A DNA stretch of 64,000 bases, from the NCBI RefSeq assembly GCF_035084215.1, contig NC_090340.1:14694001-14758000 (forward strand), in the 5' to 3' direction. The notes under the pieces were generated by a model. It did no database searches. It saw nothing but the letters and a program-made list of their open reading frames with translations, and was not told where the DNA came from. Below, piece by piece: positions 934 to 63,109 of the stretch (position 1 is its first letter; each line of letters begins with the position of its first letter). Source of the DNA: Heptranchias perlo. Taxonomy: Eukaryota. The translations under genes and the position numbers were made by a program.

Positions 934-1228
934 CTGCACCAACCGCGCTGAAGATTCTCTCCAGGACATCTGTATCTCTGACTTGTGTGTGAAACGGCTG
1001 AGGTCTATCCGAGAAATTCCACCCTCCCTCGGTATGAAAATGGCGTAGTAACTGCGATAGGAATACAAAACATTCAATGGCAGATAACTGAAGTGCTGTA
1101 TGACGTTTCCTGCTCTTTGGAAGAGACGCAGCCTGTGCCGAGCGGTGCCAGTTACACCTGTTTGGTATCTCACATGCCGCTCGAGACTCCACCTGTGGTC
1201 ATCTACACGGTTACCAATTCTAACACAG
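934..1228 (+). pseudogene. IgSF receptor copy A: defective C1-set exon
   Basis: Homologous to the intact C1 exon at 22671-22982 (CETAEVYP...YTCLVSH). The acceptor is mutated (ccgcAA at 931-933), there are small deletions with a frameshift before the first Cys, and the core Trp is changed to Arg. The donor gt at 1229 is intact. Confidence 0.85.
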
Positions 1229-1313
1229 GTACGAGGCCAACAGTCCAAGAAGGAGAGCCAGCTACTGTTAAATTCTTAAACAGATATTTCATAAAGTTCG
1301 CTCATATTAATAA

Positions 1314-2387
1314 TAAGACCATAAGGCCACAAGAGATTGGAGCAGGAGTAGGCCATTCGGTTCCTCAAGCCTGCTCCGCCATTTAATGATATCATGGCTG
1401 ATCTGATTTTTACCTCAACTCCACTTTCCCGCCCTTTCCCCATATCCTTCGACTGCCTTGCTAATCAAAAATTTGTCTAACTCAGCATTGAATACATTCA
1501 ATGACTCAGCCTCCACAACTTTTTGGGGTAAAGAATTTCAAAAATTCACGATCCTCTGGGAGAAGAAATTCCCCCTCATTTCCGTCTTAAACAGGCGACT
1601 CCTTATTCTGAGACTATTCCCCCTAGTTTTAGATTCCCCCAAGAGGGGTAACATCCTTTCAGTATCTACCTATCGAGTCCCCTCAGAATCTTATATGTTT
1701 CAATAAGATCTCCTCTCATTCTTCTAAACTCCAAAGAGTACAGACCCAGCCTGTTCAATCTTTCCTCATCAGACAACCCTTCCATACCCAGAATCAACCT
1801 AGTGTACCTTCTCTGAATTGCCTCCAATGCAAGTATGTCCTTCCTAAAATAAGGGCACCAGGACTGTATGCAGTACTGCAGGTATGGTCTCACCAGCACC
1901 CTGTATAGTTGTAGCATGACATCCCTGCTTTTATGCTCCATCCCCCTAGAAATAAAGACCAATATTCCGTTTGCCTTCCAGATAACCTGCTGTACCTGTA
2001 TGTTGACTTTTTGTTTTCATGTACGAGGACACCCAGATCCCTCTGTACCAAAGCATTTTGTGGTATTTCTGCATTCAAATAATATTTTGTTTTTTTAAAT
2101 TTTCCTCCCATAGTGGATGACTTCACATTTTCGCACATTATATTCCATCTGCCAAATTTTCGACCATTCGCTTCACCTGTCAATATCCCTTTGCAAACAG
2201 TTTGTGTCCTCACCACAACTTGCTTTTCAACCTATCCTTGTATCATCAGCAAATTTGGCTACAAGGCACTCTGTTACTTCATCCAATCCATTGATATATA
2301 TCGTAAATAGTTAAGGCCCCAGCACTGATCCCTGCGGCACTCCAATAGTTACAGATTGTCATTTGAAAATGAACCTTTTATCCCGAC
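1314..2387 (-). mobile_element. CR1 LINE 3' part (RT C-terminus and 3' tail), interrupted by the provirus
   Basis: LYRVLVRPYLQYCIQSWCP...RRMRGDLIETYKIL and the typical CR1 3' end. The element resumes at 11233. Confidence 0.9.
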
Positions 2388-3133
2388 TGTTGGCCGGAGG
2401 TCACCGGTTACGGTTACTGGCTTAGTACACAGAGGAGAAGAGTCAATTTTCTCTTAATTCTCAATTCGCTTTATTAACGTTGTTAGATCATGTACATACC
2501 ACTTATACATCTGGTTAGATACAGGCATGCAGTTTACAGCAGGTTATACAGTTTTAAACTCAAACTAGGATTTAAACGCACACCCACTAGGTTTCTCTGA
2601 CTAACATTCCCTGAGAGGTCACAGAATAGAAAGGATATTTTATTACCCGGAAAGGAGAGCTGACGCTGGCCAGGCATTCCGTTCTCTTTCTCTTGACGTA
2701 GTCTCTATGTACCTGGCGTAGTCTCTACATCCCTGACGTAGGTTCTCCCACTTTCGCGATGGTTAGTCTCCGGAGTCTCGCACACAAACTGGCACCAAGC
2801 CTGCAATTCTTCAGTCTTATTCCTAAGTCTGTCTTTTCGAATGATGCTGTCTTCTCCTGTTGGCTCAGATTTGCTGGAGTGGTCGGTGTCATCCCCTGAT
2901 TGGCTCTGTTCCAAGAGATTAGGTAGCATCACCTCATTACTCCTTTTCTAAACAAGGACTGGTGTCTCATCACAGCTCCTTTGTGCTTAGAATCGTAACT
3001 AATTCAAACCGGTTCCGGCCAGCTCAGACCAGTGACTGAACTTCAGGTCACTTCAGTTCAAAAGTTAGTCTCTTTGCCTGGGTGTCAGCAATTCGAAATA
3101 AACTCAGTAGTTTTCTGCAGCCCCTGGCCAACA
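2388..3133 (-). repeat. 3' LTR of provirus
   Basis: tgttggcc...ggccaaca. Direct repeat of 10481-11227, with about 20 differences in the first ~260 bp by eye. AATAAA on the minus strand near 2470. Confidence 0.95.
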
Positions 3134-3146
3134 TCTCCCCCCTTTT
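3134..3146 (-). promoter_or_regulatory. Polypurine tract of provirus
   Basis: Minus strand AAAAGGGGGGAGA directly abuts the LTR. Confidence 0.9.
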
Positions 3147-3393
3147 GATCCAAATATGCTTATCTTAGGATCATTACTCTCCCTTTCTGTGTACCACTCC
3201 TGAGGTTGTCATTGTCTCCCAATGGGCACGTTACATCTGCGATAGTATATGTTCATAGAAAAAATATAAAAGGTTATTGGAAAAATATAAATGGTTATAG
3301 AAAAAATATTTTAAAAACATATAAAATACACTTCACACAGTGTCCTTATATTGATAATCGCTTCATCTGTTTCATTATAGCACCAACACTCAA

Positions 3394-5623: not shown

Positions 5624-5759
5624 TCTAGGCTGGACCTGTAATAAACAAGTGTAATTTCTGCTCTTATTTACTGTTTCTTTTAAGTACTATCATAAGTCCA
5701 GTCTCTCCATATACTGAGCCAGACCGTCCATATCCTGTTCCCAATTTGTTTCAGATTCT

Positions 5760-8379: not shown

Positions 8380-8403
8380 CCATAACGGAGAGGGCTGAGA
8401 CCG

Positions 8404-10169: not shown

Positions 10170-10221
10170 CTTATGTTATTAGCTATGAATTAACCCAAAC
10201 TCCTGTCCTCTGTGTACTTTG

Positions 10222-10480
10222 CCAATTCGGTTCGGCTCGAGTCTCCCGCTGACTCAACTGAGAGATTTATCCTCAGAGCCCCCTTGCCAAATTCGGTTCA
10301 ACTCGAGTCTCCCGCTGACTCCACGGAGAGATTTATCCTCAGAGCCGACCCAAATTCGGTTCGACTCGAGTCTCCCGCTGACTCAATGGAGAGATTTATG
10401 CTCATAGCCCACCCAAATTCGGTTTGACTCGAGTCTCCCGCTGACGCAACCGAGGGATTTATATCGAGTCTACCCAAATC
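10222..10480 (-). repeat. Four-copy 61-65-bp tandem array in the proviral leader, abutting the 5' LTR
   Basis: Units start near 10222, 10287, 10350 and 10413. Conserved core ttcggtt..ctcgagtctcccgctgac...gatttat plus a variable segment of about 11-16 nt. Confidence 0.9.
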
Positions 10481-11232: not shown

Positions 11233-11790
11233 TCTTTATTTTCTGTTAGTTAGCCAATCCTCTATCCTTGCCAGTAAATTACACCCAACACCATGAGCTC
11301 TTATCTTTTGCAGTAATCATTATGTGGCACCTTATCGAATGCCTTTTGGAAATCCAAATATACTGCATCCATTGGTTCCCCTTCCTCAAAGAACTCTAAT
11401 AAATTTGTCAGACATGATTTCCCCTTCATAAAACCATGTGGACTCTCTTGATTGTTTACGAGTCTCCAAATGTCCTGCTACTACTTCCTTAATAATGGAT
11501 TCTAGCATTTTCCCAATGACAGATGTTAGGCGAACTGGTCTATAGTTACTTGCTTTCTGTCTCACTCCCTTCTTGAATAGGGCTGTTACGTTTGCGGTTT
11601 TCCAATCCGCTGGGACGTTTCCAGAATCAATGAATTTTGGAAGATTACAACCAATGCATCCACTATCTCTGTAGCCACTTCCTTTAAGACCCTCGGATGC
11701 AAGCCATCAGGTCCAGGAGAATTGTTAGCCTTTAGACCCATTAGTTTACCTGGTTTTTTTTCTCTAGTGATAATGACAGTGATAGTGACA
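11233..11790 (-). mobile_element. CR1 LINE 5' part (continuation of 1314-2387)
   Basis: SPGPDGLHPRVLKEVATEIVDAL. The sequence joins 2387 seamlessly, as shown by the uninterrupted copy near 29510. Confidence 0.88.
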
Positions 11791-12619
11791 ATCATTAAGA
11801 TAGTTCACGGAAAACTCCTGGAAAATATCAACAAAAACATAAAATTCATATTTTAATGTGAAATATAATTGAGAACCGATAGTAAAACCTGAAGTTATAT
11901 CATCCGCTGCACAAATATTCTCAGCCAAACCTTATTTGCCTTCAAATTCCTGTATTTGATGTAAAAGCAAGAGGTTTATCTTTGTTATCTGATTATATTC
12001 CATATTGTGCTTAATATTAATCACTTTATTTTTTGTTCCCATCATCAAATGGTTTTATTCGTTATTATTATCTAGCTTTCCTACAACACAACGATTACCA
12101 AGAGCTACGTTCAAATTATCGGCTCTCGCCTTTCTCCCAATGCAGTTACCGATCCTGACCACCATTTTCGGCGATTCCCCGTGAAGAGTTCTGAAATTAA
12201 GTCTCTGGCCAACTTGTGTCCCTCACCCCTCCATGGCACAGCGGTTTGGAGTTGAAACTGTCTCTTGCATTTCAACTAAGCGGTGCCCACAACCTGGCTG
12301 CAGTTCAGCCGGTTACACCGTTTTTGTAACAAACTGATTGTCGAGTCAGACAATAGTGAATAAATCACCGCACGTCGATCTCCTATACTATTCAGTGACA
12401 TTCAGTAATACAAAGGCGAACTTAATTATGACTTAACCATGAAGGCAGTGTTATCTGATTTCAAGGAGCGCCGATTGTTCCAGGCAGTAATATTCTCTGC
12501 ACTTCAAAACCAGAAATCCTCACGGAATCGGATTAAAATAGTTTTGATTGCCCGTATTTGCAACAAAAGTTTCCACTTTGCAACATGATAAATGGAATGT
12601 CCGGCGACACAAAATCACT

Positions 12620-14381
12620 TTCCAAACCATTTGGTTGTGGGTGCACAACTAGTTTGAGTGAAGTGCTCTGAGTCTCCGGCCACTAATGGCTATAGATCAT
12701 TGCTGATCGCTACAGTCAAACACTCTCGGTACGATCTAAAATTGAAAATCATGTTCGGCACCATACCGACTGTAGAAATCTCTTTGAAACCACTGATATG
12801 GAAACTCAGTGAATATTTTAATTATTCATTATGATAAAATTTCATTAATTCAAAGCTGAAAAAGAAGGCGTAACGGGACCGAACCGTTGTGAAAAGCCGG
12901 TACGTTCATTCATTCATTCCCGCAAAGGGTTCAATTATGCAGAAAGATTGATATCATGGAGATATTTAATCATAATCATGTCAGAACAATTTGCCTATTT
13001 CCTAAAAGTATTTGTTCCGCTTACCCGCTTAATGGGTCATACAAATCGTGTTCAGAAAAAAATATTTGACGCCAGCGGGGAAGGATTTCACCCTCGGGGA
13101 GGAAATAGTTTTTCGGAAAAGAAAAGCGAGCGCGGTGTAAAACGGGCGGCCGATTCGCTATCGCTCGTTTCGCGGTATCGCCGAAGGCCAATTTCACTCC
13201 CGCCCGGCGGCGCGTGGCTGTTGCAAATTATTAAATAGGAGGAAAGAAAACTGTCCGTTTAGTTAAAAATGCATCTAAGTAATAACTGTTTATAGATTCA
13301 ATATTATTTGTAATGGGGGAAAATAACTTAATGAATCAGTGTGCTGGAAGTAACGCTCATTTAAGCATTTCTTTATTATAAAATGAAGATTGACAGCTTT
13401 AAATATTAGGTACAGTGATCACAGTAGTCACCGGTCTTAACATTCGCACGTATGTAGCTATATTAACTATGGTTTCTGCACTTTATTTCTAGCGTATGTT
13501 GCTCTGTTCAATGTTTAACCAGTAGTCTGTAAACTGGTGAAGGCAATGAACTAGCCACATAACAAAACATATACTTGGTTCACATCCAGGAAACAAAGGC
13601 TGAGACAGTTGATACGCTGCAATAGGTTTGAGCAAAGCTCAGTAAACTCCAAGACGTAAATTTGCAGAGGAAAGGACTGTGTACCATCAGCCGGAGCTTG
13701 TAAGCGGAACAGGCGGTCACAGATCACCAGTGTAGCATCAACGTTGTGGTCATAACGGAAAATATAAGGTTGGTTGACCCTTGTGTATTGTAACTAACGC
13801 TGTTTGCGTGTTATTCTGATGATTGTTTTCGGCAGCAATCCACAAACGGGCAAAACGACCAATTAACAATATTTCCAAAGATGGGTTCACAGACCAAACA
13901 AGGGACCGACACGACTCTGGAAGTGTCAAGCTCCAAACAAACGGAGAAACCCAAAATAAATACAGAATAACATATTCCAATATTATATCATTGATCGTGG
14001 GTGTAATTATTTGTTATTGCTTAATCGTTTGAGGAATTTTCATTTATTTTCTTGTAATAAAAATGAACTTTCCTTGCATATTTTTAATCAATATGCACTA
14101 TTTAACAGATGCGAAATCTTTGCAACGATACGCTAATTGTTTTGCTGTACCTCGATATTATCATGCATAATTTCAATAAAAATATATGATCTACGATTTC
14201 TCTCTGTTCACCATTAATGATGATTCTTCTTCGCGAGTAAAACCGTGAAACCTGGGTTTTGACCGATGTGTTTCCTTACTGTATTCTGCCTTCCAGTCCA
14301 GGCGATTCTCCTGATGTGGAAGGCAGGACGCTCCAGTCTATTGACTCGTCCATAAACCCACTGAACCCAGTTTGCAGTTGA
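12620..14381 (+). pseudogene. IgSF receptor copy A: 3' (cytoplasmic-candidate) exon remnants; TM exon deleted
   Basis: 12620-12812 is homologous to 24545-24740 (QTLSV...TDMETQ*). 14302-14381 is homologous to 26205-26284 (GDSPDVEGRTLQSIDSSINPLNPVCS*). The ~700 bp that holds the TM exon in copy B (about 23680-24365) is absent near 12385-12440. Confidence 0.6.
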
Positions 14382-15119
14382 TGGAGCATGAGATGCCTTT
14401 CTCTGAACTCTGAATGAATATTCATTCCTATCCGAAACGATGCGCCCGGACAGTACCAGTTCACTTCTAAAGGTCCTAAGTAGTGAGAAAAGCCCGACGG
14501 AGCTGAATGCATTTTTATTGGAGAAAAGACTAAATTTATAGGGATTCAGGTCTTTCAAGTGTCGAAAGACTTGGATAATGTGGCAAAAAGCGGGTTTTAT
14601 GGTTTTAATACGCAACTGGAGGCTCTGACTTACCAAGCCTCAAGAAAGAGAATAGAGTTAAAATCATTTGCCTCTTTTACTGTGGATGTCTGATCAACTG
14701 AGGGATAACAACAGTTTGAAAGGTTAAACTATCAGATATTTCACAAGTAGATCACTTGAATTACAGGACGAGAACGAGCTGGTTACTGGAAGAACAGCAG
14801 CCCAACAGTTCCAGTGACTAAGCCCTTTACTCAGAATTTAAAGATAATACAAGACGAAGTGAATCAGTTGCATTTTATTTACCTTAACTGTCCTGGTTTG
14901 ATGACTGTGTCCATCAACATGCATTTCAGAGTCCTAGAATGTTACAGCGCGGGAAAAGTTCATTGGGCTTCTTAAGTCTGTACATTTTTTCTATCCATAT
15001 GAAACATTTAACTTGTCCTACTTTTCTTTTGGATTCGCACTATCTTTGATATCCGTATTTCAAGCAGCTAATTCCATTCTAAAAGAAATCCTGGACTGTG
15101 TTTGTGGCAGAGAACTCCA

Positions 15120-18100
15120 TATTGGCATAGGGTAAATAAGATCAGAGAGATGAATGCGTGGCTCAAGGGTTGGAGTGGGAGAAGTGGGTTTCGATTCATG
15201 GGGTACTGGCACCAGTACTGGGGAAAGAGAGAGTCGTTCCGTTGGGATGCACCACACCTGAACCATGCTGGGACCAGAGTTCTAGCGAATCGAATGACTA
15301 GAGAGGTAGATCGGGCTTTAAATTAAATAAGGCGGGGTGGGGGTAGGGTCCAGGTGGAGATAAATCTACAATGCTAAAGAGAAAAGACAAAGAAGCAGTG
15401 CAGGAAAGTGATTGCGGTAAGGGTAACCAGATTGTGTCAGGAAGGGACAGAGTGTACAAACAAAAGAGTGCATTAACAAATAGGTCCGGCTAAGAAAAAA
15501 TGGTAATAAGACAAGTAGGGCCATAGTGCAAAACAATGTTAAGATGTCTAAAAACGATAAAACGACAAATGTAAAGGCACTGTATCTGAATGCACGAAGC
15601 ATTCGTAATAGGGTAGACGAATTAACAGCGCAAATAGTTGTAAACGGATATGATATAATTGCAATTTCACAGATATGGCTGCATGGTGACCAAGGCTGGC
15701 AGCTGAATATCCAAGGGTATTCGATGTTTAGGAAGGACAGGCAAAAAGGAAAAGGAGGTGGGGTGGCGTTGTTAGTAAAGGATGAAATCAGAGCCATAGT
15801 GAGAAAGGATATTGGCTCAGAAAAGCAAGATGTAGAATCCGTCTGGCTGGAGTTAAGAAGCACCAAGGGGCAGAAAACACTGGTGGGAGTTGTCTATAGG
15901 CCTCCAAACAGTACTGGTAATGTAGAGGATGGCATCAAACAGGAAATTAGAGATGCATGTAACAAGGGTACTACAGTAATCATGGGTGACTTTAATCTAC
16001 ATATAGACTGGCCAAATCAAATTAGCAATAATACTGTGGAGGATGAATTCCTCGAGTATGGACGAGATGGTTTTTTAGACCAGTACCTTGAGGAGCCAAC
16101 CAGGGAACAGGCTATCCTAGATTGGGTATTGTGCAATGAGAAGGGGTTAATTAATAATCTTGTTTTGCAGGGTCCTTTAGGGAAGAGTGACAATAACATG
16201 ATAGAATTCTTCATTAAGATGGAAAGTGAAGTAGTCCAATCCGAAACTAGGGTCCTATATCTAAATAAAGGAAACTACGAAGGTATGAGGAATGAGTTGG
16301 CCATGATAGATTTGGAAGCTTCATTAAAAGGCATGACAGTGGATAGGCAATCGCTAACATTTATGGAACAAATGCATGAATTGCAATAATTATACATTCA
16401 TTTCGGGTGCAAAAACACAAAAGGAAAATCGGCCCAAACATGGCTAACAAAATAAATTAAGGATAGTATTCGATCCAAAGAGGAGTCATATAAAGTTGCA
16501 AGAAAAGTATCAAGCCTGAGGATCAGGAGCAGTTTAGAATTCAGCAAAAACGGACCAAGAGATTGATTAAGACCGGAAAAATAGAGTATGAGGAAGCAAA
16601 ATAAAAGTGGACTGTAAAAGCTTCTACAAGTATGTAAAAAGAAAAAGATTAGTGAAGACAAACGTAGGCCCCAAACAATCAAAAACGGGAGATTTTATAA
16701 TGGGTTACAAGGAAATGGCAGAACAATTAAACAGAATCTTTGGTTCTGTCTTCATGGAAGAGTATACAAATAACTTCCCAGAAATATTAGGGAACTAAAG
16801 GTCTAGTGAGAAGGAGGAATTAAAGAAAATTAGTATTCGTAAAAAATAGTGCTGGAGAAATAAATGGGACTGAAAACCAATAAATCCCCAGGGCCTGATA
16901 ATCTGCATCCCAGAGTACTAAAAGAGGTAGCCATGGAAATAGTGGATGCATTGGTTGTCATCTTCCAAAATTCTATAGATTATGGAACAGTTCCTGCAGA
17001 TTGGTAGGTGGCAAATTAACACCACTATTTAAAAAGGAGGGAGAGAGAAAACAGGGAACTACAGACTGGTTAGTGTAACATCAGTAGTAGGGAAAATGCT
17101 AGATTCTATTTCCAAAGAATGTGATAACAGGACACTTGGAAAATATCAACGGGATTAGACAAAGTCAACATTGATTTATGAAAGGGAAATCATGTTTGAC
17201 AAAACTACTGGAGTTTTTTGAGTACGTAAGTGGTAGAATAGATAAGGGAGAACCAGTGGATGTGGTTTATTTGGATTTTCAGAAGGCCTTTGATAAAGTC
17301 CCACGTAACAGGTTAGTGTGCAAAATTAAAGCACATGGGATTGGTGGTAATATACTGGCATGGATTGAAAATTGGTTAACAGACAGGAAACAGAGAGTAG
17401 GAATAAATGGGTCTCTTTTGGGTTGGCAGAATTCAGTGCTTGGGCCCCAGCTATTCACAATATATATCAATGATTTGGAAGAGGGAACTAAATGTAATAT
17501 TTCCAAGTTTGCTGATGACACAAAACTAGGTGGGATCGTGAGTTGTGAGTGTGATGCAAAGAGGGTTCAAGGCGTTTTAGACAAGTTGAGTGAGTGGGCA
17601 AATATATGGCAGATGCAGTATAATGTGGATAAATGTGAAGTTATCCACTTCGGAAGGAAAAACAGAAAGCAGCGTATTATTTAAATGTAGATAGATTGGG
17701 AAATGTGATGTACAAAGGGACCTGGGTGTCCTTGTACACCAGTCACTGAAAGCAAACATGCAGGTGCAGCAAGCAGTTAGGAAGGCAAATGGTATGTTGG
17801 CCTTCATTGCAAGAGGATTTGATTAGAGTATCAAGGATGTCTTACTACAGTTATACAGGGCCTTGGTGAGACTAAACCTGGATTATTGTGTGTAGTTTTG
17901 GTCTCCTTACCTAAGAAAGGATATACTTGCCATAGAGGGAGTGCAGCGAAGGTTCACCAGACTGATTCTTGGGATCGCAGGACTGTCGTATGAGGAGAGA
18001 TTGGGTTGACTCAGCCTGTATTCACTCGAGTGCAGAAGAATGAGAGGGGATCTCATTGAAAGATATGAAATTCTGACAGGTCTAGACAGACTGGATGCAG

Positions 18101-18410
18101 GGAGGATGTTTCTCATGGCTGGGGGGTCCAGAACGAGGGGTCACAGTCTCAGTCTTTAGGACTGAGATGAGGAGAGATTTCTTCACTCAGAGGGTGGTGA
18201 ACCTATGGAATTATTTACCACAGAAGGCTGTGGAGGCCAAGCCACTGAATATATTTAAGGAGATAGATACATTTCTGGACGCAAAAGGCATCAAGGGGTT
18301 TGGGGGGAGAGCAGGAATATGGTATTGAGATAGAGGATCAGCCATGATCATATTGAATGGCGGAGCTGTTTTGAAGGGCCGAATGGCCTACTCCTGCTCC
18401 TATATTTCTA
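15120..18410 (+). mobile_element. CR1 LINE (ORF1 esterase end, APE endonuclease, RT, 3' tail), degenerate
   Basis: YLNARSIRN, GGGVALLVK, VYRPP, MGDFN, YLDFQKAFDKV, FADDTKL. Absent from the paralogous site near 27095. Confidence 0.93.
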
Positions 18411-20317
18411 CATTGCATTCTAACCAGCCTCTGTGTAGAGAGTATTTTACCTCTCCCTTTATTTTTTGAGATTATGTTCAATTTGTGGTCAGTCGTTACA
18501 GTCTCCTGACCACTGGAAACAATCTATCATTATTACCTTATCATCACGCCTCATGCTCTTGAAGACCTCTGTCAGGTCACTACTTAAATTTTTCAACTCA
18601 AGTGAAAGGTGTCCAAGCTTCTCAAATAATAACAACTCCACATTCCTAGTAATAAAGCCTGCCCCTTTTTCAATTGTTTTTATATCCTTCCTTAGCTTTA
18701 GAAAAGCTCTTACATCAGTTGAAGATTGTCTCCTTGAAATTGTATTCAATGCCACCAAATACAAAACCATGACATTCCCTTGCATCTTTATTGGACAATA
18801 AACTTCTGCTGCCATCAATCATTAAGGTAGCTTTGCTGCTCTCCATTTAAAATCCTATAATTTTAGTTGTATTTCCTATTCTTACTTCCAGAAATGTACT
18901 ATTACACATTTCTCTGCATTCTCCATGGAACATCTATCTGCCCTTCCAATTAACTATCGACGTCGCCTGCAGGATTTCACAATCTGCATTAGGTGCTATC
19001 AGCAAATTTTAATGTTGCTCCCTCAATTCCCCAGTCGAGATAATTAATCTTTATAATAAATATAAACAGCTCAACACAGACCCCGTGGAACATCTCTCGG
19101 CACACCTTTCAACTCGGAGAAGGGTCCTTTTACCTTTGCACTTTGTTTTCTGTCCTCCAACCATCTCTGTATCCACGTGGCCACCTTGTCCTTACGTCCA
19201 CGTGCGTTTGTGGTATGTGGTATCTTATCAAATACGTTTTGAAAATTCATACAATCTACATCTGCGACACTCTCTTTTTCTCTATTCTCTCTGTTATTTC
19301 TTCAATTCATTCTTTGAATCAAGCGCAATCTGTTTTTTTTTTCGAAACCTTACTGATTAGCTCAGGTTTCTGCAAGAACTTAACAGTTTTATGCGGACTG
19401 ACGCAGGTCCTGCTAAATGCGAGTAGATGTGCAACTGTTTACCTGTCATTATGTTTCAGGTTGCTTCACATTCTATATTCTCATTTTGTAAAAATTCGTT
19501 GGCTTCGAGATGGAGATTAAGTCACCGTGGTGCAGATTATTTTGATAATTAGTTAACCGAAAGTGACACTTTCATGGGCAGTGATACAAAATTAACATTT
19601 GGGCGTTTTGTGTTCTGTGTCTTGCGTTCTGATGAAATGTAAGCTATCAACCGAAGTGTTCACCAGTCTGATTTTAGCTGCACCAGATGTTTTGCGATAA
19701 AGTGACACGAGCGAATCGTTTTCTCGAGCTAAATAAACAAACGGTTCAGTAGTTCAGCTCGAAGCACCAAATGCTCAAACTTTAAATTTAGCTCTGTTAA
19801 TTCTAACATCATCAAAACGCGCCGAGTGTCGAATAACGGTAGTTATTAAGCAACATGTTTCAATGTATTTGTGATACGATATTCACATTTATCAGAGATA
19901 CGATTTCATATTTGCCTTTGTGACATCTGCTACCCTCATCAATAGTACAGTCTGAAATATATAGCCTCTTTAAGGCGCCATTCTTTCCGATTTCTTACAT
20001 TATATTAAGTGTAAGGTAAGCCGCAAAAGTATTTCCTAAATAAATTTCTGGCGCTTTATTTATTCATCGGTACACAAATACAGTGAAATTGGTTAAACCC
20101 ATGACACTCGGCATAATAACTTCGTGCATTGCAATACTGTAAGATTAATCACACGGGCTTCCAAATTGAAGTTCTAGATATTTTCGAAAATGTCAACAGA
20201 GTTCGGCTAAAATGAAGCGCATGTTATTTAGTTGCCCCATAATTGTAACTATTTATGTGACATGTTATGAAGAACGTTACTCATTCAAGTTGTTCCTATC
20301 ACAGTGTTTTACGCCTT

Positions 20318-21294: not shown

Positions 21295-21355
21295 ATGTTG
21301 TCGAGTGTGGTGCTTATGTTCCTGCTCCTGTCTCTCCGGGGAATTATTTACACAG
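21295..21355 (+). CDS. IgSF receptor copy B exon 1: signal peptide MLSSVVLMFLLLSLRGIIYT
   Basis: Hydrophobic leader with phase-1 donor cag|gtatc. Homologous leaders at 55167 and 62690. There is an upstream in-frame ATG at 21253. Confidence 0.8.
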
Positions 21356-21551: not shown

Positions 21552-21854
21552 CTGCTGCACGTATTTCTCAAACCCCCGAACAAGTGATTGCATTAAGGGG
21601 GGAAAACATCACCTTCTACTGTGTAATCCCGCTCTCTCAGGACAACTCAGAAGTGCATTGGTGGAAACAGGGCGAGAAAGCATATTTGCAAACAACGGTC
21701 GATAACAGAAAACGATTTGGTGTCAAAAATAAAGGAGCCAGTTTCTTTGAGCTACGGAACGTGACCTTCCAAGACTCTGGAATCTATCAATGCACAGTGA
21801 TCCGTCAGGGAAGCGTTAGTGGAAATGGAACGGGCTCAAATCTAATTGTGTGCG
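21552..21854 (+). CDS. Copy B exon 2: V-set domain with germline-joined J-like G strand
   Basis: Acceptor ttttctaacag, donor gtaagt, phase 1-1. Reads ISQTP...GENITFYC...VHWWKQ...FELRNVTFQDSGIYQC...GNGTGSNLIV. Confidence 0.93.
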
Positions 21855-22670: not shown

Positions 22671-22982
22671 CTGCTCCAACTCCACTGAAGATTGTCTCCA
22701 GGACACCCGAGAGCAAACCATCTGCTTCTCTGACTCTTGTGTGTGAAACGGCTGAGTTTTACCCGGAGGATTTCACCCTCACTTGGTATAAAAATGGCGT
22801 CAAAACCACAACTGGGATAAATATGACTAAACGGCGGAACACTGAGGGTCTGTATGAAGTTTCCAGCACTTTGGAAGTGACGAAGCCGAAGCGGAATGGG
22901 TCTGTTTACACCTGTTTGGTAACTCATGTCGCCCTCCAGACTCCCGCCATTGCAACCTACACTGTCAGCAATTCCGACTCAG
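22671..22982 (+). CDS. Copy B exon 3: C1-set Ig domain
   Basis: Acceptor ctgtccacag, donor gtaagg, phase 1-1. Reads LTLVCETAEFYPEDFTLTWYKNG...GLYEVSSTL...YTCLVTHVAL. Confidence 0.93.
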
Positions 22983-24164: not shown

Positions 24165-24278
24165 TTCGTGATGGCATGTCTCCTTACTACTCGGGTTTTA
24201 GATATGCGATGTGCGGTGTGGCGTTACTAGTGCTTCTGGTCATCATCCGGTCGCACTGCCAATTGCAGGTTAATAAAG
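24165..24278 (+). CDS. Copy B exon 4: stalk and transmembrane segment with Arg
   Basis: Acceptor ttcttgcag, donor gtaagt, 114 bp, phase 1-1. Reads VRDGMSPYYSGFRYAMCGVALLVLLVIIRSHCQLQVNK. Confidence 0.85.
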
Positions 24279-33776: not shown

Positions 33777-33778
33777 AT

Positions 33779-40390: not shown

Positions 40391-43329
40391 ATTGCCCCTT
40401 TTCACGGTGGTCTACACCTTAGGACCACAGGCTGCATGCGACCAAGGAGGGGATTTTGTAAGGAACTTCTTATGAAATATCTTGCCGTGCAACTTCGTCC
40501 GCGTCGCGAGCAGTACGCAACGGAGAGGGCAATTGTTCCCATTCGTGATATCACAGTAGGGGAACTCCCATGTAAATTTCGTGCTCCCAGGCTGCCTGTA
40601 AGCAGCTGTTTCACATCATGTAAGAGGTGACTGAACACAACAGGTACAGCTCCACATAAGTTGCGTGACCTGTTGAGTGTATCCAGCATTTTATGTTTCT
40701 ATTATAGGTATTCCACTTCATAACGCTGGAGGCATAAGGGACAGGTTAGCAGAATGCGCTTCTCATTTAAGAACACGCTGCATTTGGTTATGTTGAAGAT
40801 GGATTAAAATTTTAAGAACACAAATAGAAACAAGTATACAGACCAACACGCATGTGTGAGTACGTGCGCGCAAGCACACGCACACACCAAATTTATAGTC
40901 TCTGTGCATATCCAGTGAAAAATATCCAACCAGAGTATTCAAATGGATATATAATAAAAATGAAAGTTAATATATCAATGAGAAAGAACAATCTTCTTAT
41001 CTTACTCAAAGGGGGAAGATCATTTTTTGCGAACTAATCGACGTGAACTTATTTGCTGCAATTCAATTGGATATATTCCATATCGATAACACATCATTTG
41101 CACACTGCATACTTTGAAAGCAATGGTGGTACTGAGACTGTCGCCTGTCCAGCAGTATGAAGATTGCACATGCAACCGAGATCCCTTTTCTTTCAATGGA
41201 GAACACAAGAGCTGATACACAAAATGAAATAAGGGATCCCTTGGGAAATGTATTTTTAACGTACTTTCGCCTCACACTGCAGTCACACTCAGTGCGGTGT
41301 CGAACCGAAGCCCTTTGAGACTAACTCCTCCAGGTCGGGCTTTAACTTGAATTCCAGCTGCAACTTTAGCTTGGCTGCGAAGCCGAAACGACTTCACGAG
41401 AAGCTAAAGTTCGTAACAATGGTTTACAGCCAACAACTGATAAATAATGGTGGAGCCGAATATCCAGCTTGAAAATCCTAGGAGAACCGAATATGTCTTT
41501 TACAAGATGCACAGCTTCCCGCTGATCTCTACCTTTTCCATTGTTAAAGTTGCCAATATGTAATAAACAGAGGAACCGCTCATTGTTGGGGGAGGGGGGC
41601 TGTTCCGATTTTTAAAAAATGAAGTATATTTGGTAGGAATACATCCGCTTTCTTGTACAGTAGCCTTGTGGGTTACACTCTCCGTGGCCTAGTGTAATAA
41701 TCAATCATTCGGACCGCACTAGTCCTTCTAATTCAGGTTAGTAAGAAAGAATGTGCGTCATGGGACCAAAGTTTCCAGAATGCAAACACCTGGACGCTTC
41801 TTGGATTATCCGGTTAACTAAGAGTCAAAAACTTGTTAATCAGCCTGTTTCATCACTGGGCAAGGCGATACAGATATGCTTATCATAGCAGGAAATTCGG
41901 CCCCGCCAGTCAACTAAAGCAGCAAACTAAAACTGCATGTATATTTAGCTTGCAACCACAGACAGTTAGATACGTGCCGATTAACATGTTCATTCATCTA
42001 CAGTCAAACAAGCCTGCAGCGGCTCCACTTTTGCAAAGTGAAGTAAGATTAAACTTTCTATCACAAATATCTAGGAACACGTAATCTTGGTACACATACA
42101 TCCTGATAATTACCTGAGTAAGACTTTAAGTCTTTTCTCTCGGATCTTCAGACTATTTTACCGTTTGAATTTTTTTTACCGTAAAGTATGGAGAACTGCA
42201 CCCGTTAATATTGTGACCAACTGCACCAGATTGTCTTTTTAGCCTTTCAAACACAAGTCTTTCAAACATTCTGTGCAATTCGCTGATGACTCAGGGGGCA
42301 ATAGATCCCCGGAGTGCAGTACTGAGTTATGCAGAACAGGAAGGTCATTTTTTCTAATCCCGTTGTCTGTGGAAATAGAGTCTGGGAAGTGGGGTTCCAC
42401 CACCGATCTCAGCTGTCGTGGCCTCTGCTTGAAGCTCGTGCATAGAGAAGATAAAGCCGGGATGTGATAGTTCCTCCCATCCGATTATCCACTAATGGAC
42501 CGGAGAGTGTAAAATGTAATTTGTGTAGCTAAAACTCCAGATCGCTAATGTCATTCCCAAGATTAAATAAGTCACTGGGAGTTTGACTATCTACACTGCA
42601 AGCAATGCTGTCGATACAAAACGATTGTTATATTTTGGGTTTTTTATTTTCTTACTCTCTCACAGAAACAAGATGTTAATGGGCCTCCAACACATCTTGT
42701 ATTTATAATTCTACCAATGGAACATTCTCTCTAAGGCACTTCGATTAACATCAGTAAATTATTAGACAAGTGAAAGGTTTACACACTCAAAGCAACTTGA
42801 CACATAAAAAATCAACACTCAGACTTATTCGAAAATATCGTCAGCTGGTGACATACATCCAGCAAGAAACGTGTCAACCCGCAGGAAGTACTAACATGAA
42901 GTCCCAGCTACAACCCTCTCCCCCTTCTGATTACAGCTTTACATAGAATGCATTAAGCTCATTTTATATCCATCCACCAACTTTGTATCATCTAATGCTA
43001 CAGGAAGAGTATGTAGCGAACTACAACGGAAAGTGTCTGTAAGCGAATGTTGCATGAACCCTTGATCCGTCTCGGTTGTGGCTCCTTCGCTTCCTGCTTT
43101 TTGTTTCTGTTTTTCTTTCCCAGCTGTACCTGGACACACTTTCCCAAAGGCTAAGGATTTGCTGTCGTTGAATTATGAGCAGCAGAGGCAGATCTTCTCA
43201 ACAGTTCTTTACTTGACCATTAAAAACAGAATTCCGCACTTTATTTTTACATATTGTAAATGCTTTGATAATTCTTTCTATTTTTCATCCACACGCGGTG
43301 CTCTTTTCTGCATGTTCGCATCAAAGTCA

Positions 43330-48437: not shown

Positions 48438-48867
48438 AGAGGCATCCAGAGGCCGCTGCTAGAAAATGCCGGTCGGATGAGCACAGGGGAGCGCTCGACA
48501 ACGTGATCCCCGTCCGCACTCGCTCTCTTGACCTATGCGTGAACAGTGGTCACGTGAGCAAAGAACGGCGGGCTGAGAAGGCGGTGCACATCCCAGCAAG
48601 AATCCACGCCTTGAGAAGGGGAGAAACGAGGAGAAACTGGCAAAGTAACCAGACGAAAACAGTTCACTCTGAGAGGCATGTATACCATATTAAATAACTG
48701 TCCCATAAAACCAACCCGGCAAATTTTACAGATGTTAATGCAATAATTAACAAGATCACTCGGAAAGTGGCGACTGCGATACGAATTCTTCAACCATACA
48801 TATAAACCTTGGAAAATTGAAGAAACATGCTGCATTTTACGACCACTGCACGTTCCAAAGAGATTCA

Positions 48868-49501: not shown

Positions 49502-49615
49502 CTTCAATGGAAGTTACTTTTAAATGGTCCACAATAATATCCGTCAGTCCAAGAATTACCAGAAAACCCATGACAAGCCAACCAATCATGAGGAGCCAAA
49601 TGATGAAATTGTGAT
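49502..49615 (-). pseudogene. IgSF receptor copy E: TM exon without a basic residue
   Basis: 114 bp, phase 1-1 (same length as the copy B TM exon), donor gtaaga. Reads DHNFIIWLLMIGWLVMGFLVILGLTDIIVDHLKVTSIE. Confidence 0.65.
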
Positions 49616-50797: not shown

Positions 50798-51112
50798 CTG
50801 TCCCAATTTTATCTTGATCAGCGGTGTAGATGATACTGGCGTGCACCAGCAGAGAGACATGAGATACGAGACAAGTATAAACAACCCCTCTCCGGGCAGG
50901 CTGCGCTTCTTCCATAAAAAAACTGGAAACCTCGTATAGCCCCTCCACTCTCCTGTTTTTCACAGTTTCTCTTCCAGTCAGAATTTCGACGCCACCTCTT
51001 CGCCAGGAGATTCCTAAGTGTTCCGGGCAAAAGGCAGCCTTTTTATGCTCGAGTTTCAGAGAAGTCGGTGAAATCCCTTCAATAGGATCGATTTTCAGGG
51101 GGCTTGGGGAAA
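50798..51112 (-). pseudogene. Copy E: degenerate C1 exon
   Basis: PSPLKI...LKLEHKKAAFCPE..ISWRRGG...EGLYEVSS...YTCLVSHVSL. The first Cys is lost and there is no AG at the expected acceptor (ttttctgacaa). Confidence 0.8.
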
Positions 51113-51187
51113 TTTTGTCAGAAAACATTGTTAGTATTAGTCTCCGTGTATTTATTACTGAAAAATTTGGTAATATCGCAATCTTAC

Positions 51188-53400: not shown

Positions 53401-53688
53401 TAACAAACCTAATTTTCATTTTGTAGTTTTTTACCATCAACAGCAGCAATGTTCCGCGTGCTAAATATGTTTCCTAATGACGATTTTAGGCACTGAAGAT
53501 GGACAAATGCTTTTATAAGTTAGATTTAAAGTGTTCTGACATATTTATGATACAATCTCTTCATTGTAACATATTTTCACATTTGAACCTTCTGCCTGGA
53601 TCAATGATATAAGCGTGTCAGTTACCTACCGGTCCCATTGGACTTCCCCGGGATTCATGGAATTTAGTTCAGCAAATAATTGGAATGT

Positions 53689-54287
53689 TTACTCAGTTTC
53701 CGTGTCCGTGATTTCAAAGACATTTCTAGTGTCAGTGGAAACCCTTGCATCATTCTCAATATCACAATTATCCGATAGCGTTCGGAAGCCCAGCCCCTGT
53801 AACTACCTGCAATCGAGTGCAGCCATTCCGGACTTCACTCAAACTAGTTCCAGCTCGCAATAGACTGATATTAAATGTGACGACCTACAAATGCAAATTT
53901 CAGATACCAACTACTCTAAAATGGGCATTTCTGCTTTCAATACACAGATATTCTGACCCATTTATTATATGATTCTGTGAGGATTGCTGCACTTCAAAAT
54001 GTCTTACTTATTGCTGTTTGCTGCAATCAGCAATCGCTGTGCCTGTGGCCCCGGACAACGCTGTTTTCAGTTTTCAGTGATACGCCCGTTCTTCTCTCTG
54101 TGTTTCACCCTGGACCCTTTCGTTTTCACTCTGAAGTGTTGTAAAAGAAGCAACACCAAAGGTAAAATTATGCTTCATCACATATTAAAGCGGAATCGCG
54201 TACCGGTGATGATCCTAATCACTGGAAATGCCGATCTAGAAAATGCACACTCACAAACGCTGATGTAAGAAATCATACCGCCACAAT
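53689..54287 (-). pseudogene. IgSF receptor copy F: degenerate TM exon (54178-54287) and terminal exon (53689-53884)
   Basis: tcttgcag|DCGGMISYISVCECAFSRSAFPVIRII aligns with the copy B TM exon. ttgtag|...TLSDNCDIENDARVSTDTRNVFEITDTETE* aligns with 12720-12812 and 24650-24740. Confidence 0.65.
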
Positions 54288-55166
54288 CTGCAAGACATTT
54301 TCCGTTATTTCGCGAGCTATTTCTGGCCCAATAATCTGTCTCACCAGCGTCCAAATCCAGCTCCCGTTGCCTATTCGTGGGTGAACAATCCAAAGTTTGG
54401 TGAAATCTGCTTGTGAATTTTGGGAATAATCCATATCCAAAGATAAAAAGCGATTTCGCAATAAATGCTTGGCTGCCACTCAATTTTCACCATAGTAGCT
54501 TTTCGGGAATTTCCTGCTTAAATCCACCGCACATATTTTGTTTAACTTATTTTGTAGTCCAGTTCTGATTGAATTGTATGGAATCCATGGATCAACACGA
54601 GAATCACATTGCTCTTGCATAGCATCACATCGGGAAATCTATAATTCATAATTCCATCCAGTCTTGCAGATTACGGCACTGTGTAAGACACGCGTTCCAT
54701 AAAGCATGGTTTAATCCTTTGTGGTCAGTTTCTATATTTACTACTTTAAATAATACATTTCCAGTGTCTTGCCGTGGCTTGCTGCCTCTTTATATTCCCT
54801 TACGTTTAAGTGAAAGTATTATTGCTTTTAGTCTGACGATGTGCCCTTTGGAGAAAACGAGACAATGGAGTGGGTATCCTGCATAATCTTCATTGCACCA
54901 TACTGCATTTGGCGGGTAATTGTTAACCCCTACGCCCTTGTGGCACAATGACAATGCAGGTTTCTTTTCATATGAGACTTCTTCCTGCTTATGCAACCAA
55001 CGTTTCTGTAGTGCCCTAAAGTTACAAGTCTTGAAAGTTCAGTCTGTTACAATCTATTTCCTGAATTGGCAGCCACATGCCCAACGTCACTGCGTCACAA
55101 TTCGTATTACACAGTTCGCAACCACCTTTTCATTACCAAAATCATGCACATTGCGGCGAGCTCAGA

Positions 55167-55843
55167 ATGTTGACGAGTTTTGTTTTTTCTCCGAGAGATC
55201 ATTTACACAGGTACCTACAATTCGATAACCCAGCTGCCTCGATAAACAAAAACACGTGAAATGATTTCCTCTGAAATACAATGAAATTTAAATCTCTGCC
55301 AATTTTGCTTCTTTCTTTTTTTCATCTCTACGTCGTGTCTATTACAATTAACCAAACTTTGAATGTATTTCCTGATAAACGCTTCTAGTATTTCGATCAG
55401 TCAATTAACTTCTTGAACAACCAATTATTTTCAGAGTGACACACATCACCTTCGATTGCATATTCTACTCAATATAAATCCAGTGCGATTTAGTTCATCT
55501 TTGCGATTCTTCTTTATCTCTTTCATTTGCAGGTAGAACTGTGCTCTCAAGTGTCTGGTTCTGCGTCCAATGCAATTAGCCAAACTTTGCATGTATTTTC
55601 TAACATCTGCGGCGCAGATTTTTCGATCTGAGTGGCTCGAATTCCCGAACAGGTGATGGCATTCAGAGGGACACACATTATCTTCGACTGTGTAATCTCC
55701 TTCTTTCAGGTCAACTCTTGGACAGAAGTGCTTTGGTGGAAACAGGTTGAGAATGATTACCTGCAAAGTGAAACGAATAGCAGAAAATGATTTGGTTTGA
55801 AAATTAAAGGAAGCGGTTTCCTTCAGTTGCTGAACGCGACTTT
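55167..55843 (+). pseudogene. IgSF receptor copy D: frameshifted leader (55167-55210) and truncated V exon (55607-55843)
   Basis: PEQVMAFRGTHIIFDCVIS...EVLWWKQVENDYLQSETNSRK*FGLKIKGSGFLQLLNAT. Acceptor AG is changed to AT, CGA has become a TGA stop at 55788, and a CR1 insertion follows. Not shown in the ORF track. Confidence 0.85.
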
Positions 55844-55847
55844 AAGA

Positions 55848-60115: not shown

Positions 60116-60609
60116 AGACCTAACATCACTCTTGTTGAATATTGTATCCTCAAACTTACTTTAATCACCACCATGGGAGATCCAAATATTAGCAAATTTG
60201 CAATGGCGAGAAAGAGGTTCTACAGCTGTGTACCAAGGTGGGTTTCTAGGATTTGTAAGTGGAAGCAGTGCACAACTCGACTGAAATAATTTGGAAACCT
60301 GTTTAGAAGGAACAGAATTTAAGAATATGGGTACTCGTTCCCAGCAGAACCTTAACTCTCATCCTGGTTATATCGATGGTGTGATCTTAATCTTCAGCTC
60401 CTCAAGTCCAAGAGGCGCACACTTGATTGCATCTTGCAAACAAGTGGCGCAGCCATTTAATGCCAAATCTCGCTGGACCAAATGAAGCTTTGCAGAGTAT
60501 AACTGCCCACTGCCACAACTGCCCACTACACTTGAATCGTCCTGGAGAGCAAAAGTCACCTATTGTTTCTTTCCTCTTCTACCAACGACCGGCTGAAACC
60601 CTACTCCCG

Positions 60610-61245
60610 TAACGACAAGTTCAAAGAAATCATGGATGCATTTGATATCAAATAGAGACCATCCACTCTACTGCATCTCCATTCCACTTTCGTGCCAAAC
60701 CAAACCTATCCTCCACGCCATTCCATATCTATGAGTCCTGTTTCTCTGGAGCTTCTCTCCTTTCTTCCCTCATGCACTCTCTATGCTCATCTCATTCACA
60801 CGAAACAATTCCTGCTCCATAGAACCTATTCGCACCATACCGTTGCCCACCTAACTTCCCTGTCAGGCGGTCATGAGAGCTAACATTGTAACTGTCTCAC
60901 TCTCCAAAGGGATTGTCCATCTTCGTTTGGAAACCGCTGTCATCAACCCCTCTCAAAAAATTTACCCTCGACCCCGCTCTCCTTGCAAACTACCACCCCT
61001 TCTCCAACCTCCCTGTCCTCCCTTAAAATCTCTTAGATATGTGCCCATCACCCCGTCTTAAACCTTCCATATCTCCAGCTGTCACTTCTCCTTTACAAAC
61101 CTCCTTCGAATCTGGTCTTTCAGAAAGCTTTAGGTGCTAATATCTCCTTTATTGGCTTTAACTCCTCCATTGTACTTGCCGCTCTGTGAACCACCTTTTT
61201 TCGTATTTCCACGTTAAAGGCACAATGTAAGTGCAAATTGAAGTT
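60610..61245 (+). mobile_element. Old L2-like LINE fragment
   Basis: Degenerate ETAVINP..K..LDPALLANYHPFSNLP across frames, followed by an L2-like 3' tail. Confidence 0.55.
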
Positions 61246-62689
61246 TTTATTGTTGCTGGGTTTTGTGGTTGAGGTGAGGTGGTGTGGGGGGTGTGGGGGT
61301 GCTGTTTTCTATTATTGCTTTCTCTATTGCCCATATCTGAGAAATGCCATCAGGGAACTTCAACGGAGATTGGCAATCTGAACCAATCTGAGAAGCATGA
61401 CGTGTTAATTTGTGGAGTGCTGGTATAATGCGAAGCTTTATCTACATTGTTTAAGTCTGGTGCGCCTGGATAGGGGCAATACGTGAGACTTTTAATTCCA
61501 TAGATTTTTTAATGTTCTTCTCTAGATCTTCTTTGAAGCGGATGCTCTTCAAACGGTGATAAAGCCTGCATTGGGCAGGAAGTCGAATGGGAAGAATGTT
61601 ACCTTTTACTGTTCTTAACTCGTTCTTCCGTCATGAGTGTTTTACTTGCAACTCATTCGGCGGCCAATTTATGTTTAACTAAGTAACATAACCACTATAA
61701 AGCCAATTTGCACGATTTTAATGTGGCAACCATTAATGCACTGAATTAATTTTGGACAGAATCCGAGCGCTGATAACAGGACAATAAAATTGCAGGTAAA
61801 GCCAGATTTCAAGGACACATCTGCAGCTTTATAATAGGATCCTACGCTGTGTGTTTTTTCAACATCGGAAAGTTAAAGAAATATAAAAATGAACAGTTGA
61901 TAACAAGGAAGCTCACGGTTTGCCACGTCTACTCTCTGCCCATGGAACGACGTTATAATGAAGGGTTTCCGACACCAGCATCAACACCCAGTCGCATGAC
62001 AACGCACAAAATCACGTGATCACTGATCTTTCAGCTTGTATATTTCTCATTTCGGATTGGTGTCAAGTCTTCTGAGGTATAAGACATTACAAAGCACAGC
62101 ATCAGTCTAAAATCACCTGACATGTTCAAGGAATTGTGAACTTTTAGTTAACAGTCTGCATACAGGAAACTGCCGTATTAATCAGTCCTTTTCTAACCAA
62201 CGTTTTTCAGTAAATATTGCTGCTTATTATTCACAGGCTGATTATGAACGACCTATGATAGTCCCTATTTTGTATTGATTTGGCATGTCAAGTATATTTT
62301 AGGTCACGTTAAAGTAGTGGGCAGAAAATGGCCAGTGTCCGCATCAACGTCTTGCGAAATTCACCTGAGAAGATCGCACTCGCACCTCCATTCCTGCATC
62401 TTAATCATCAGGAAACAACACTGACTGCACGAATTTTAGTAAATTCTGCACTTGGAAAGCAAATATTTAACCTTACTCTTTGCTGCCCGTGAGACATGTG
62501 AGTCCAATAGCCGAATAAGTGCAGAAATTTGCATATCGCACTGAACAAACGAATCATCTGTTCTAAAGCCGCAGTTTCAGGAGGTCAAACGACAATGCGA
62601 TGCATCTCATGAAAAACAAAGCACAAACCATTCTAAACAATGGCAAGCTCGTAATTAGTGCAGTGCGTCAGTTTAATCTGTTGCTCAGA

Positions 62690-62744
62690 ATGTCGGCCAG
62701 TATGGTGTTTCTGTCCTTGACGCTCCGGGGGATTATTTGCACAG
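62690..62744 (+). CDS. IgSF receptor copy C exon 1: leader MSASMVFLSLTLRGIICT
   Basis: Homologous to the copy B leader, with an intact phase-1 donor cag|gtacc. Confidence 0.75.
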
Positions 62745-62914
62745 GTACCTCTTTATTCACAAGAACAGCTACTTCAATTTATAAAAAGATTCCGAAGTCG
62801 TTTCCACATAAATGCAATGATCGTAATTCCTCTATCTAGATTCATTTTCTCTCTCTTCCAACTCCATGTCGTATCTAATGCAATTAACACGGACTTGACT
62901 ATATTTTCTGACAG

Positions 62915-63109
62915 CTGCGGAACACAATTCGTTCAGAGTGACTCAAGCGCCCAAACGGGCAATTGTATCCAAAGGGGGAGACATCACCTTCTACTGCACA
63001 TTCTCCATCTCTCAAGCCCAGTCCCAAGACTCTGGAGTCTATCACTGCGCAGTGATCCGAGAGGGAACAGTTGGAGCAAATGGAACCGGATCATATCTAA
63101 TTGTGCATG
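62915..63109 (+). CDS. Copy C exon 2: V exon with in-frame 40-codon internal deletion (gene continues beyond the window)
   Basis: Both splice sites are intact. Reads VTQAP...GGDITFYCTFSISQAQS^QDSGVYHCAVIREGTVGANGTGSYLIVH. The following intron is homologous to 22180-22520 and 430-550. Confidence 0.8.

What the first reader, a model, noticed from the sequence alone, without database searches (positions are those of the whole stretch)
934..63109. At least six paralogues in 64 kb with only one intact: a birth-and-death receptor cluster
Seen: copy A (C1 and tail, plus strand), B (complete), E (V?-C1-TM, minus), F (TM and tail, minus), D (leader and V, plus) and C (leader and deleted V, plus). Several are invisible in the ORF track. 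V sequences differ widely outside the framework residues. Inference: rapid turnover typical of NK and myeloid receptor clusters (KIR/LILR, NITR, CHIR) under pathogen or MHC-driven selection.
Basis: partly seen in the sequence, partly recalled or inferred. Interest (0 to 1): 0.72.

Follow-up and report, generated by a model that had tools for sequence, protein, structure and literature searches.

The report
Shark paired VJ-C1 immune receptor cluster
This stretch of shark DNA holds one intact gene and five broken or cut-off pieces of a family of antibody-like but non-rearranging surface receptors found across sharks, rays and chimaeras, and the intact gene is likely an activating receptor, likely formed by recombination between two neighbours after the inhibitory tail of one had decayed.

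Summary
Observation largely confirmed. Corrections: E has no V; A and C are cut by the window ends (both also carry lesions); D and F may be halves of one gene; two further duplicated units have lost all exons. The family is chondrichthyan-wide and paired: of 57 homologues, 14 have a transmembrane Arg at B's position (13 of them without ITIM) and 24 of the other 43 have ITIMs. B has that Arg; its ITIM exon survives as a relic whose frameshift and stop are shared with A. B is a mosaic: its V and its TM exon belong to different sub-lineages. Its frame would survive neutral decay in 25 of 20,000 simulations. Birth-and-death is supported, but it is slow, V lineages are shared between sharks and rays, and V is no more divergent than C1 (54% each), so V-focused selection is not supported. 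Closest solved relatives: SIRP-alpha, UrIg2, Ig chains. I found no description in ten paper searches, but three key papers were not readable.

The parts
934..1228 (+). Copy A, dead C1 exon (acceptor lost, frameshift, Trp>Arg); its 5' half lies before the window
11787..19733 (+). Copy A 3' unit (intron with TM exon deleted, tail exons, intergenic DNA, a LINE inside), duplicate of 23062-28420
12856..12899 (+). Copy A first cytoplasmic exon (44 nt, frame open)
13590..13690 (+). Copy A relic ITIM exon; 1-nt frameshift before the first Tyr and a TAA, both shared with B; 19 of 26 residues match P0061
21295..21355 (+). Copy B leader exon
21552..21854 (+). Copy B single-exon VJ domain (G-strand GNGTGSNLIV), no recombination signals
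22671..22982 (+). Copy B C1-set exon
24165..24278 (+). Copy B transmembrane exon with Arg near the outer face; counterpart of the TM exon of catshark P0036
24786..24818 (+). Copy B first cytoplasmic exon, 11 nt shorter than A's, ending the protein after 8 residues (splice use inferred)
25498..25634 (+). Copy B relic ITIM exon (acceptor lost, frameshift and stop shared with A); AATAAA follows at 25865
29918..30314 (+). Exon-less unit G: duplicate of B's upstream region (K2P 0.207)
38301..40613 (+). Exon-less unit H: older duplicate of the A-to-B intergenic region (K2P 0.33-0.40)
48725..48807 (-). Copy E tail exon, P0072 type (no conserved ITIM)
49502..49615 (-). Copy E transmembrane exon, P0072 type, Trp where P0072 has the Arg
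50798..51114 (-). Copy E dead C1 exon, P0049 lineage (70% identity); no V upstream
53455..54295 (-). Copy F: decayed TM exon (54287-54173) and the following intron/tail region
55167..55843 (+). Copy D: out-of-phase leader, partial internal duplication, broken V cut by a LINE
62690..63109 (+). Copy C: intact leader and a V lacking 42 codons with the core Trp; P0005-like; the rest lies beyond the window

Best explanation
The window is part of a shark cluster of non-rearranging VJ-C1-transmembrane receptor genes that come in ITIM-bearing and short-tailed, transmembrane-Arg forms, and its one intact gene, B, is a short-tailed Arg form that likely activates leukocytes through an ITAM adaptor and likely arose by unequal crossing-over. 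Steps: (1) shown: an ancestor of A lost its ITIM exon by one frameshift just before the first tyrosine, since A and B share it and a later stop; (2) inferred: unequal crossing-over near the C1-TM intron duplicated the block from A's third intron to the next gene's 5' end, so B joined the V-C1 of a neighbour (unit G, now exon-less) to A's TM and dead tail; (3) shown by simulation: B's frame has been kept open since then, while A, D, E, F and the V of C decayed by point changes, deletions and LINE/LTR insertions; (4) inferred from established biology of paired receptors: the Arg pairs with FcR-gamma or CD3-zeta; (5) inferred, untested: activating members counter microbes that bind the inhibitory siblings, which is why they are born by shuffling and die often.
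For: Gene structure and lesions. Family: 59 of 59 hits at E<=1e-10 carry chondrichthyan names, one contig length per species. Arg at B's column in 14 of 57 homologues, 13 of these without ITIM/ITSM pattern; 24 of the 43 others have one (Fisher p=0.0015, rows not independent). Same-species Arg/ITIM pairs with near-identical ectodomains: P0004/P0027 97-98%, P0007 and P0030/P0029 96-98%; P0072/P0032 sister C1s. B's TM matches P0036 at 16 of 24 residues including the Arg, yet B's V is rejected from P0036's V lineage (AU p=0.006 and 0.0008). A/B non-coding K2P 0.187 over 4376 columns and B/G upstream 0.207, against 0.46 for the A/B V-C1 intron (93 columns) and dS 0.49 for their C1. Frame survival 25 of 20,000 neutral runs, 376 at half rates. 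Definition of paired receptors and Arg/FcR-gamma pairing: passages of PMC3533184; ectodomain homogenisation in pairs: passages of PMC3210942.
Against: No ligand, cell type or adaptor binding was tested. B's splicing is predicted, not seen; three possible tails were translated, all short and ITIM-free. The survival test is strong only if all four exons have been together since the duplication: for C1+TM alone it is 673 and for TM alone 5472 of 20,000, and B was chosen because it is intact (about 1% across eight units). dN/dS intervals against dead copies are wide (0.27-2.5 for V). B's hydrophobic stretch is short. The AU groups were named after I had seen a V tree. B's C1 has no firm place in the tree. 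19 of 57 homologues have neither Arg nor ITIM, some being truncated models.
Confidence: 0.68

Rival explanations
1. B is a pseudogene that has not yet lost its frame; the whole window is the dead edge of a cluster whose working genes lie outside it.
For: B's tail exons are decayed; every neighbour is broken; no database protein is identical to B's V (best 72%); TM-only survival is 27%.
Against: Four exons, seven splice dinucleotides and all core Ig residues are intact; survival 25 of 20,000 if the exons have been together since the A/B duplication; the TM exon with its Arg is conserved with catshark P0036; C1 dN/dS B-A 0.57 (0.33-0.91).
Confidence: 0.17
2. One reading: fast turnover driven by diversifying selection on the V domain by MHC or pathogens, as in KIR.
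For: Many dead copies; young species-specific duplicates; paired forms.
Against: V not more divergent than C1 (116 of 210 pairs have V<C1; means 53.7 and 54.1%); in close pairs V is as conserved as C1 or more; V lineages span sharks and rays; dN/dS point values below 1. Site-level selection and allelic polymorphism were not testable.
Confidence: 0.2
3. The proteins act mainly as ligands or co-stimulatory molecules of the B7/B7H6/tapasin-related V-C1 kind, as some automatic names suggest, not as paired receptors.
For: RefSeq names include B7H6-like, CD276, PD-L1-like and tapasin-related; some Atlas structure rows are CD276/butyrophilin.
Against: J-type G strand, up to four ITIM/ITSM motifs and the mutually exclusive TM Arg; best feature matches are SIRP-alpha clusters (0.97); no B7 protein among the best 60 PDB hits.
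Confidence: 0.07

Closest known systems
SIRP family (SIRP-alpha/beta/gamma)
   Same: VJ-type V followed by C1, ITIM-bearing and short-tailed paired forms, gene cluster; best single V+C1 stretch in the PDB profile search (61.5 bits against 50-52 for Ig chains and UrIg2); top Atlas feature hits; many RefSeq names.
   Different: One C1, not two; Arg at the outer end of the TM, whereas SIRP-beta uses DAP12 (its mid-membrane Lys is recalled); only remote sequence similarity; orthology and CD47 binding untested.
PRARP / Xenopus VJC1 genes
   Same: Non-rearranging VJ-C1 membrane proteins with inhibitory motifs (PRARP named as a non-rearranging VJ gene in a passage of PMC10751288; the rest recalled).
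   Different: Recalled as one or two genes in bony vertebrates without a TM-Arg partner; no bony-vertebrate protein appeared among 59 hits at E<=1e-10. The papers were not held, so identity with a family named there is not excluded.
NKp30 (NCR3)
   Same: Single-exon VJ domain; outer-face TM Arg and adaptor coupling (recalled).
   Different: NKp30 has no C1 domain (recalled); it is not among the best 60 PDB hits of the V exon or the profile.
UrIg and UrIg2
   Same: Elasmobranch non-rearranging VJ + C1 genes; UrIg2 scores E=8.7e-30 against the family profile.
   Different: UrIg has three C1 domains and is only secreted (Introduction of PMC12227049); this family has one C1, a TM and signalling tails.
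KIR, LILR/PIR, CHIR, NITR clusters
   Same: Paired ITIM and charged-TM forms, unequal crossing-over, dead activating copies.
   Different: Their domains are C2-type, or V plus I-type for NITR (recalled); here C1-set (Pfam E 2.9e-16); no excess V divergence.

Membership tests
Paired immune receptors (functional class) | ITIM-bearing members | tested here: met
   25 of 57 homologues carry an ITIM/ITSM pattern; relic ITIM exons in A and B
Paired immune receptors (functional class) | Short-tailed members with a basic TM residue | tested here: met
   B and 14 of 57 homologues, Arg in one column
Paired immune receptors (functional class) | Similar ectodomains in opposing members, clustered genes | tested here: met
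   96-98% pairs in Mustelus and Scyliorhinus; one contig length per species (exact positions not seen)
Paired immune receptors (functional class) | Opposing signalling on leukocytes | not testable with these tools
   needs cell assays
SIRP | VJ-type V domain followed by C1 | tested here: met
SIRP | Two C1 domains | tested here: not met
   B has one C1 exon; nearly all homologues have one; P0034 and P0103 models hold two
SIRP | Activating member couples to DAP12 through a TM Lys (Lys recalled) | tested here: not met
   Arg at the outer end, no Lys in that column
SIRP | Conserved synteny; CD47 binding | not testable with these tools
   no flanking gene in the window, no genome held
PRARP / VJC1 | Single-exon VJ + C1 + TM + inhibitory motif (recalled) | tested here: met
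   architecture of P0005, P0008 and kin
PRARP / VJC1 | Orthology by tree or MHC-paralogon synteny | not tested
   no named PRARP sequence came up; papers not held
Ig/TCR (rearranging or germline-joined light chain) | Recombination signal sequences or split V/J | tested here: not met
   0 matches to 12- or 23-spacer consensus with up to 3 mismatches, about 0.9 expected by chance; V and J in one exon
UrIg/UrIg2 | VJ + three C1, secreted | tested here: not met
   one C1 and a TM exon
KIR/LILR/CHIR/NITR | C2-type or V+I-type domains (recalled) | tested here: not met
   membrane-proximal domain is C1-set

The most novel reading that the evidence does not exclude
An undescribed, chondrichthyan-wide paired receptor complex built from the exact unit of an antigen-receptor chain (single-exon VJ + one C1 + TM). 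It would be the main inhibitory/activating Ig receptor system of shark NK or myeloid cells, the oldest branch of the SIRP-like lineage, and a membrane-bound counterpart to UrIg as a living model of the pre-RAG receptor; the window records an inhibitory gene being turned into an activating one.
Probability: 0.3. Interest if true: 0.75.

Novelty: new variant of a known kind. Interest (0 to 1): 0.5.

Why it matters
Intact single-exon VJ genes are sought as relatives of the gene that the RAG transposon split (Introduction of PMC12227049), and the inhibitory/activating receptors of shark leukocytes are poorly known (my knowledge). Here a multi-gene VJ-C1-TM family with both signalling forms is present in chimaeras, rays and sharks, hidden under at least eight different automatic names. 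It gives testable candidates (one ITIM and one Arg partner per species) and a dated DNA record of how an activating form is made from an inhibitory one. The evolutionary process itself is known from mammalian paired receptors.

Tried and rejected
Whole-genome search: no genome held, so flanking copies, haplotypes and synteny were not examined. V exon for E: not found. A stretch at 24602-24691 resembling a V-end/C1-start (E=0.005 in one query) has no DNA-level support: taken as chance. The conserved block at 24389, which looks like a tail exon, is likely intron: the exon that matches homologue tails is at 24786. My first idea that B's Arg was a private decay of a Gly codon was dropped when P0036 showed the same exon. 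One search used a leader end 3 nt too long; one search corrects it. Expression: no RNA holder listed on record; three runs guessed to be RNA, one sample, gave no cover of B's leader, V or TM, which proves nothing; identical low-depth pieces lie only at 24913-25812, just before the AATAAA, a weak hint at most (19 pieces not shown). Fold search returned only Ig light chains at TM 0.26-0.31 and did not separate families. The unnamed library gave V-C1-TM proteins whose best named matches are family members, mostly at 31-55% identity; their taxa are unknown. Ten paper searches gave no description of this family; the elephant shark genome paper has no SIRP or ITIM in text or held supplement. Not held: the primordial immune complex paper, the PRARP paper and a review of VJ-joined receptors. 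Earlier scan findings: nothing.
Full report
What is in the window. No genome is held, so the work rests on the window and public proteins. Translated and DNA searches find six coding remnants of one Ig-superfamily family. Copy B has a leader (21295-21355), a V exon (21552-21854), a C1 exon (22671-22982) and a TM exon (24165-24278), all with AG/GT ends, in one frame. Pfam calls the two domains V-set and C1-set. The V exon ends in a J-like strand, and the window has 0 recombination-signal matches at up to 3 mismatches, so this is a non-rearranging VJ gene. A, D, E and F are broken; C has an intact leader but a V lacking 42 codons. E has no V. A's 5' half and C's 3' half are outside the window. 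D (leader, V; plus) and F (TM, tail region; minus) lie head to head and both match the P0003/P0031/P0029 lineage best, so they may be one gene split by an inversion. Two more duplicated units (29918-30314, 38301-40613) keep only non-coding DNA.

The family. B's V found 4 proteins among 132 candidates; one of them found 23 among 679, 22 chondrichthyan and one weak teleost hit; the 25-row profile found 59 among 5240 at E<=1e-10, all with shark, ray or chimaera names. In each species the hits share one contig length, for example 10 clusters in Heptranchias perlo and 9 in Heterodontus francisci, some of them isoforms. Their names are automatic and scattered (SIRP-alpha-like, SIRP-beta-like, tapasin-related, B7H6-like, Ig lambda-like, MHC II-like, CD276, PD-L1-like). 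None is identical to a window copy. The window is likely from a hexanchiform shark: C's V is 83-85% identical to P0005, and in run X1, which holds pieces identical to the window's non-coding DNA, the deepest paralogous C1 contig agrees with P0032 at 9 of 9 changed residues (18 of its 25 differences used). The run is only guessed to be RNA.

Paired forms. I aligned the TM regions of 59 named proteins, leaving out obvious isoforms and models without TM; 2 lacked the anchor and dropped out. Of 57, 14 have Arg in the column of B's Arg; 13 of these have no ITIM/ITSM pattern, while 24 of the other 43 have one; 19 have neither (p=0.0015, rows are kin). Arg forms occur in chimaera, rays and sharks and in several V lineages. 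Opposing forms within a species have near-identical ectodomains: 97-98% in Mustelus, 96-98% in Scyliorhinus. This meets the definition of paired receptors in PMC3533184 (passages) and the homogenisation pattern in PMC3210942 (passages). E's TM and tail are of the Arg type P0072, with Trp in place of the Arg.

How B arose. Downstream of A and of B lie relics of an ITIM exon. Both carry the same 1-nt deletion just before the first Tyr and the same later TAA; B has also lost the acceptor and has an 11-nt deletion in the exon before. All three tails I could build for B are short and ITIM-free. A and B are 0.187 apart (K2P, 4376 columns) from the C1-TM intron onward, and B's upstream DNA is 0.207 from unit G. 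Their 5' parts are further apart: 0.46 in the V-C1 intron (93 columns, where A is closer to C, 0.28) and dS 0.49 in C1. B's TM exon matches catshark P0036 (16 of 24 residues), but B's V is rejected from P0036's lineage (AU p=0.006, 0.0008; groups named after a tree was seen). The simplest reading (inference) is one unequal crossover near the C1-TM intron, giving B = 5' of G + 3' of A. Under neutral change at the A/B rates, B's four exons stay intact in 25 of 20,000 runs, 376 at half rates; C1+TM alone 673, TM alone 5472. So B is likely under purifying selection, given that history and allowing that it was picked for being intact.

Over 21 of 24 proteins with whole V (210 pairs), mean identity is 53.7% for V and 54.1% for C1, V lower in 116 pairs. 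dN/dS of B against dead copies is 0.57 and 0.59 for C1 and 0.57-0.77 for V, with wide intervals. V lineages are shared by sharks and rays (starred 97/96 for B's lineage), with young duplicates inside species. This is birth-and-death with exon shuffling on a slow clock; it gives no sign of V-focused diversification, though site models and alleles could not be run.

Mechanism. Shown: architecture, lesions, two exclusive signalling types, mosaic B. From established knowledge: an outer-face TM Arg with a short tail couples to FcR-gamma in LILRA and DCAR. Inferred: B is an activating leukocyte receptor; its ligand is likely shared with an ITIM sibling of the same V lineage or is a microbial mimic of it. 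Untested: expression, adaptor, ligand.

Comparison with known families. The profile's best PDB hits are an IgA chain, UrIg2 and SIRP-alpha; SIRP-alpha gives the best single V+C1 stretch, though a single-sequence search ranks it fourth of 8, and Atlas features point to SIRP-alpha clusters. It fails SIRP's two-C1 and DAP12 features, UrIg's secreted three-C1 form and the domain types of KIR/LILR/CHIR/NITR (recalled). It works like a SIRP/LILR-style pair; membership of SIRP or PRARP is open. Papers seen: PMC12227049 (abstract, passages, Introduction), PMC10751288 (passages), PMC11599192 (abstract, one passage), PMC3533184 and PMC3210942 (passages), PMC3964593 (term search of text and the one held supplement). 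Ten searches found no account of this family, but the PRARP paper, the primordial immune complex paper and a review of VJ-joined receptors were not held and may cover it.

Verdict. A real cluster; a new variant of a known kind (paired Ig receptor cluster) with an antigen-receptor-like VJ-C1 unit; interest 0.5.

Noticed in passing
window 2388-11227 (-): LTR retroelement inside a LINE in A's third intron: 747-bp LTRs at K2P 0.084, TG...CA ends, 5-bp target duplication, zinc knuckle, RT, an RNase H-like domain followed by a weak second RNase H (E 0.004), and frames after pol with no Pfam match; broken into pieces and holding a second insert at 3444-4214.
   Followed up: partly
window 33133-35712: Very young insert with 100% identical 308-bp inverted arms, TG...CA ends and a 5-bp target duplication; further inverted (33544-33645/35305-35406) and direct (34004-34122/35188-35306) blocks inside. 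Looks like an LTR element whose right end is an inverted copy of its left LTR; a rearranged element or an assembly quirk.
   Followed up: partly
P0019 (Heptranchias isoform) and window 62915-63109: An annotated isoform lacks 35 residues from the same middle part of V that copy C has lost from its DNA, with different ends.
   Followed up: no
window 21851-21853: B's V exon ends in an extra Cys shared by most of its V lineage (P0003, P0004, P0010, P0012, P0013, P0027, P0031), a possible inter-chain disulphide.
   Followed up: no
P0033, P0034, P0103, P0159, P0169: Family models with other domain counts (V-V-C1, C1-V-C1, V-C1-C1, V only); real shuffles, skipped exons or fused predictions.
   Followed up: no
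window 25029-25159, 56795-56874, 58379-58503, 51974-52032: A short dispersed repeat that also appears in many unrelated contigs of runs X1-X3.
   Followed up: no
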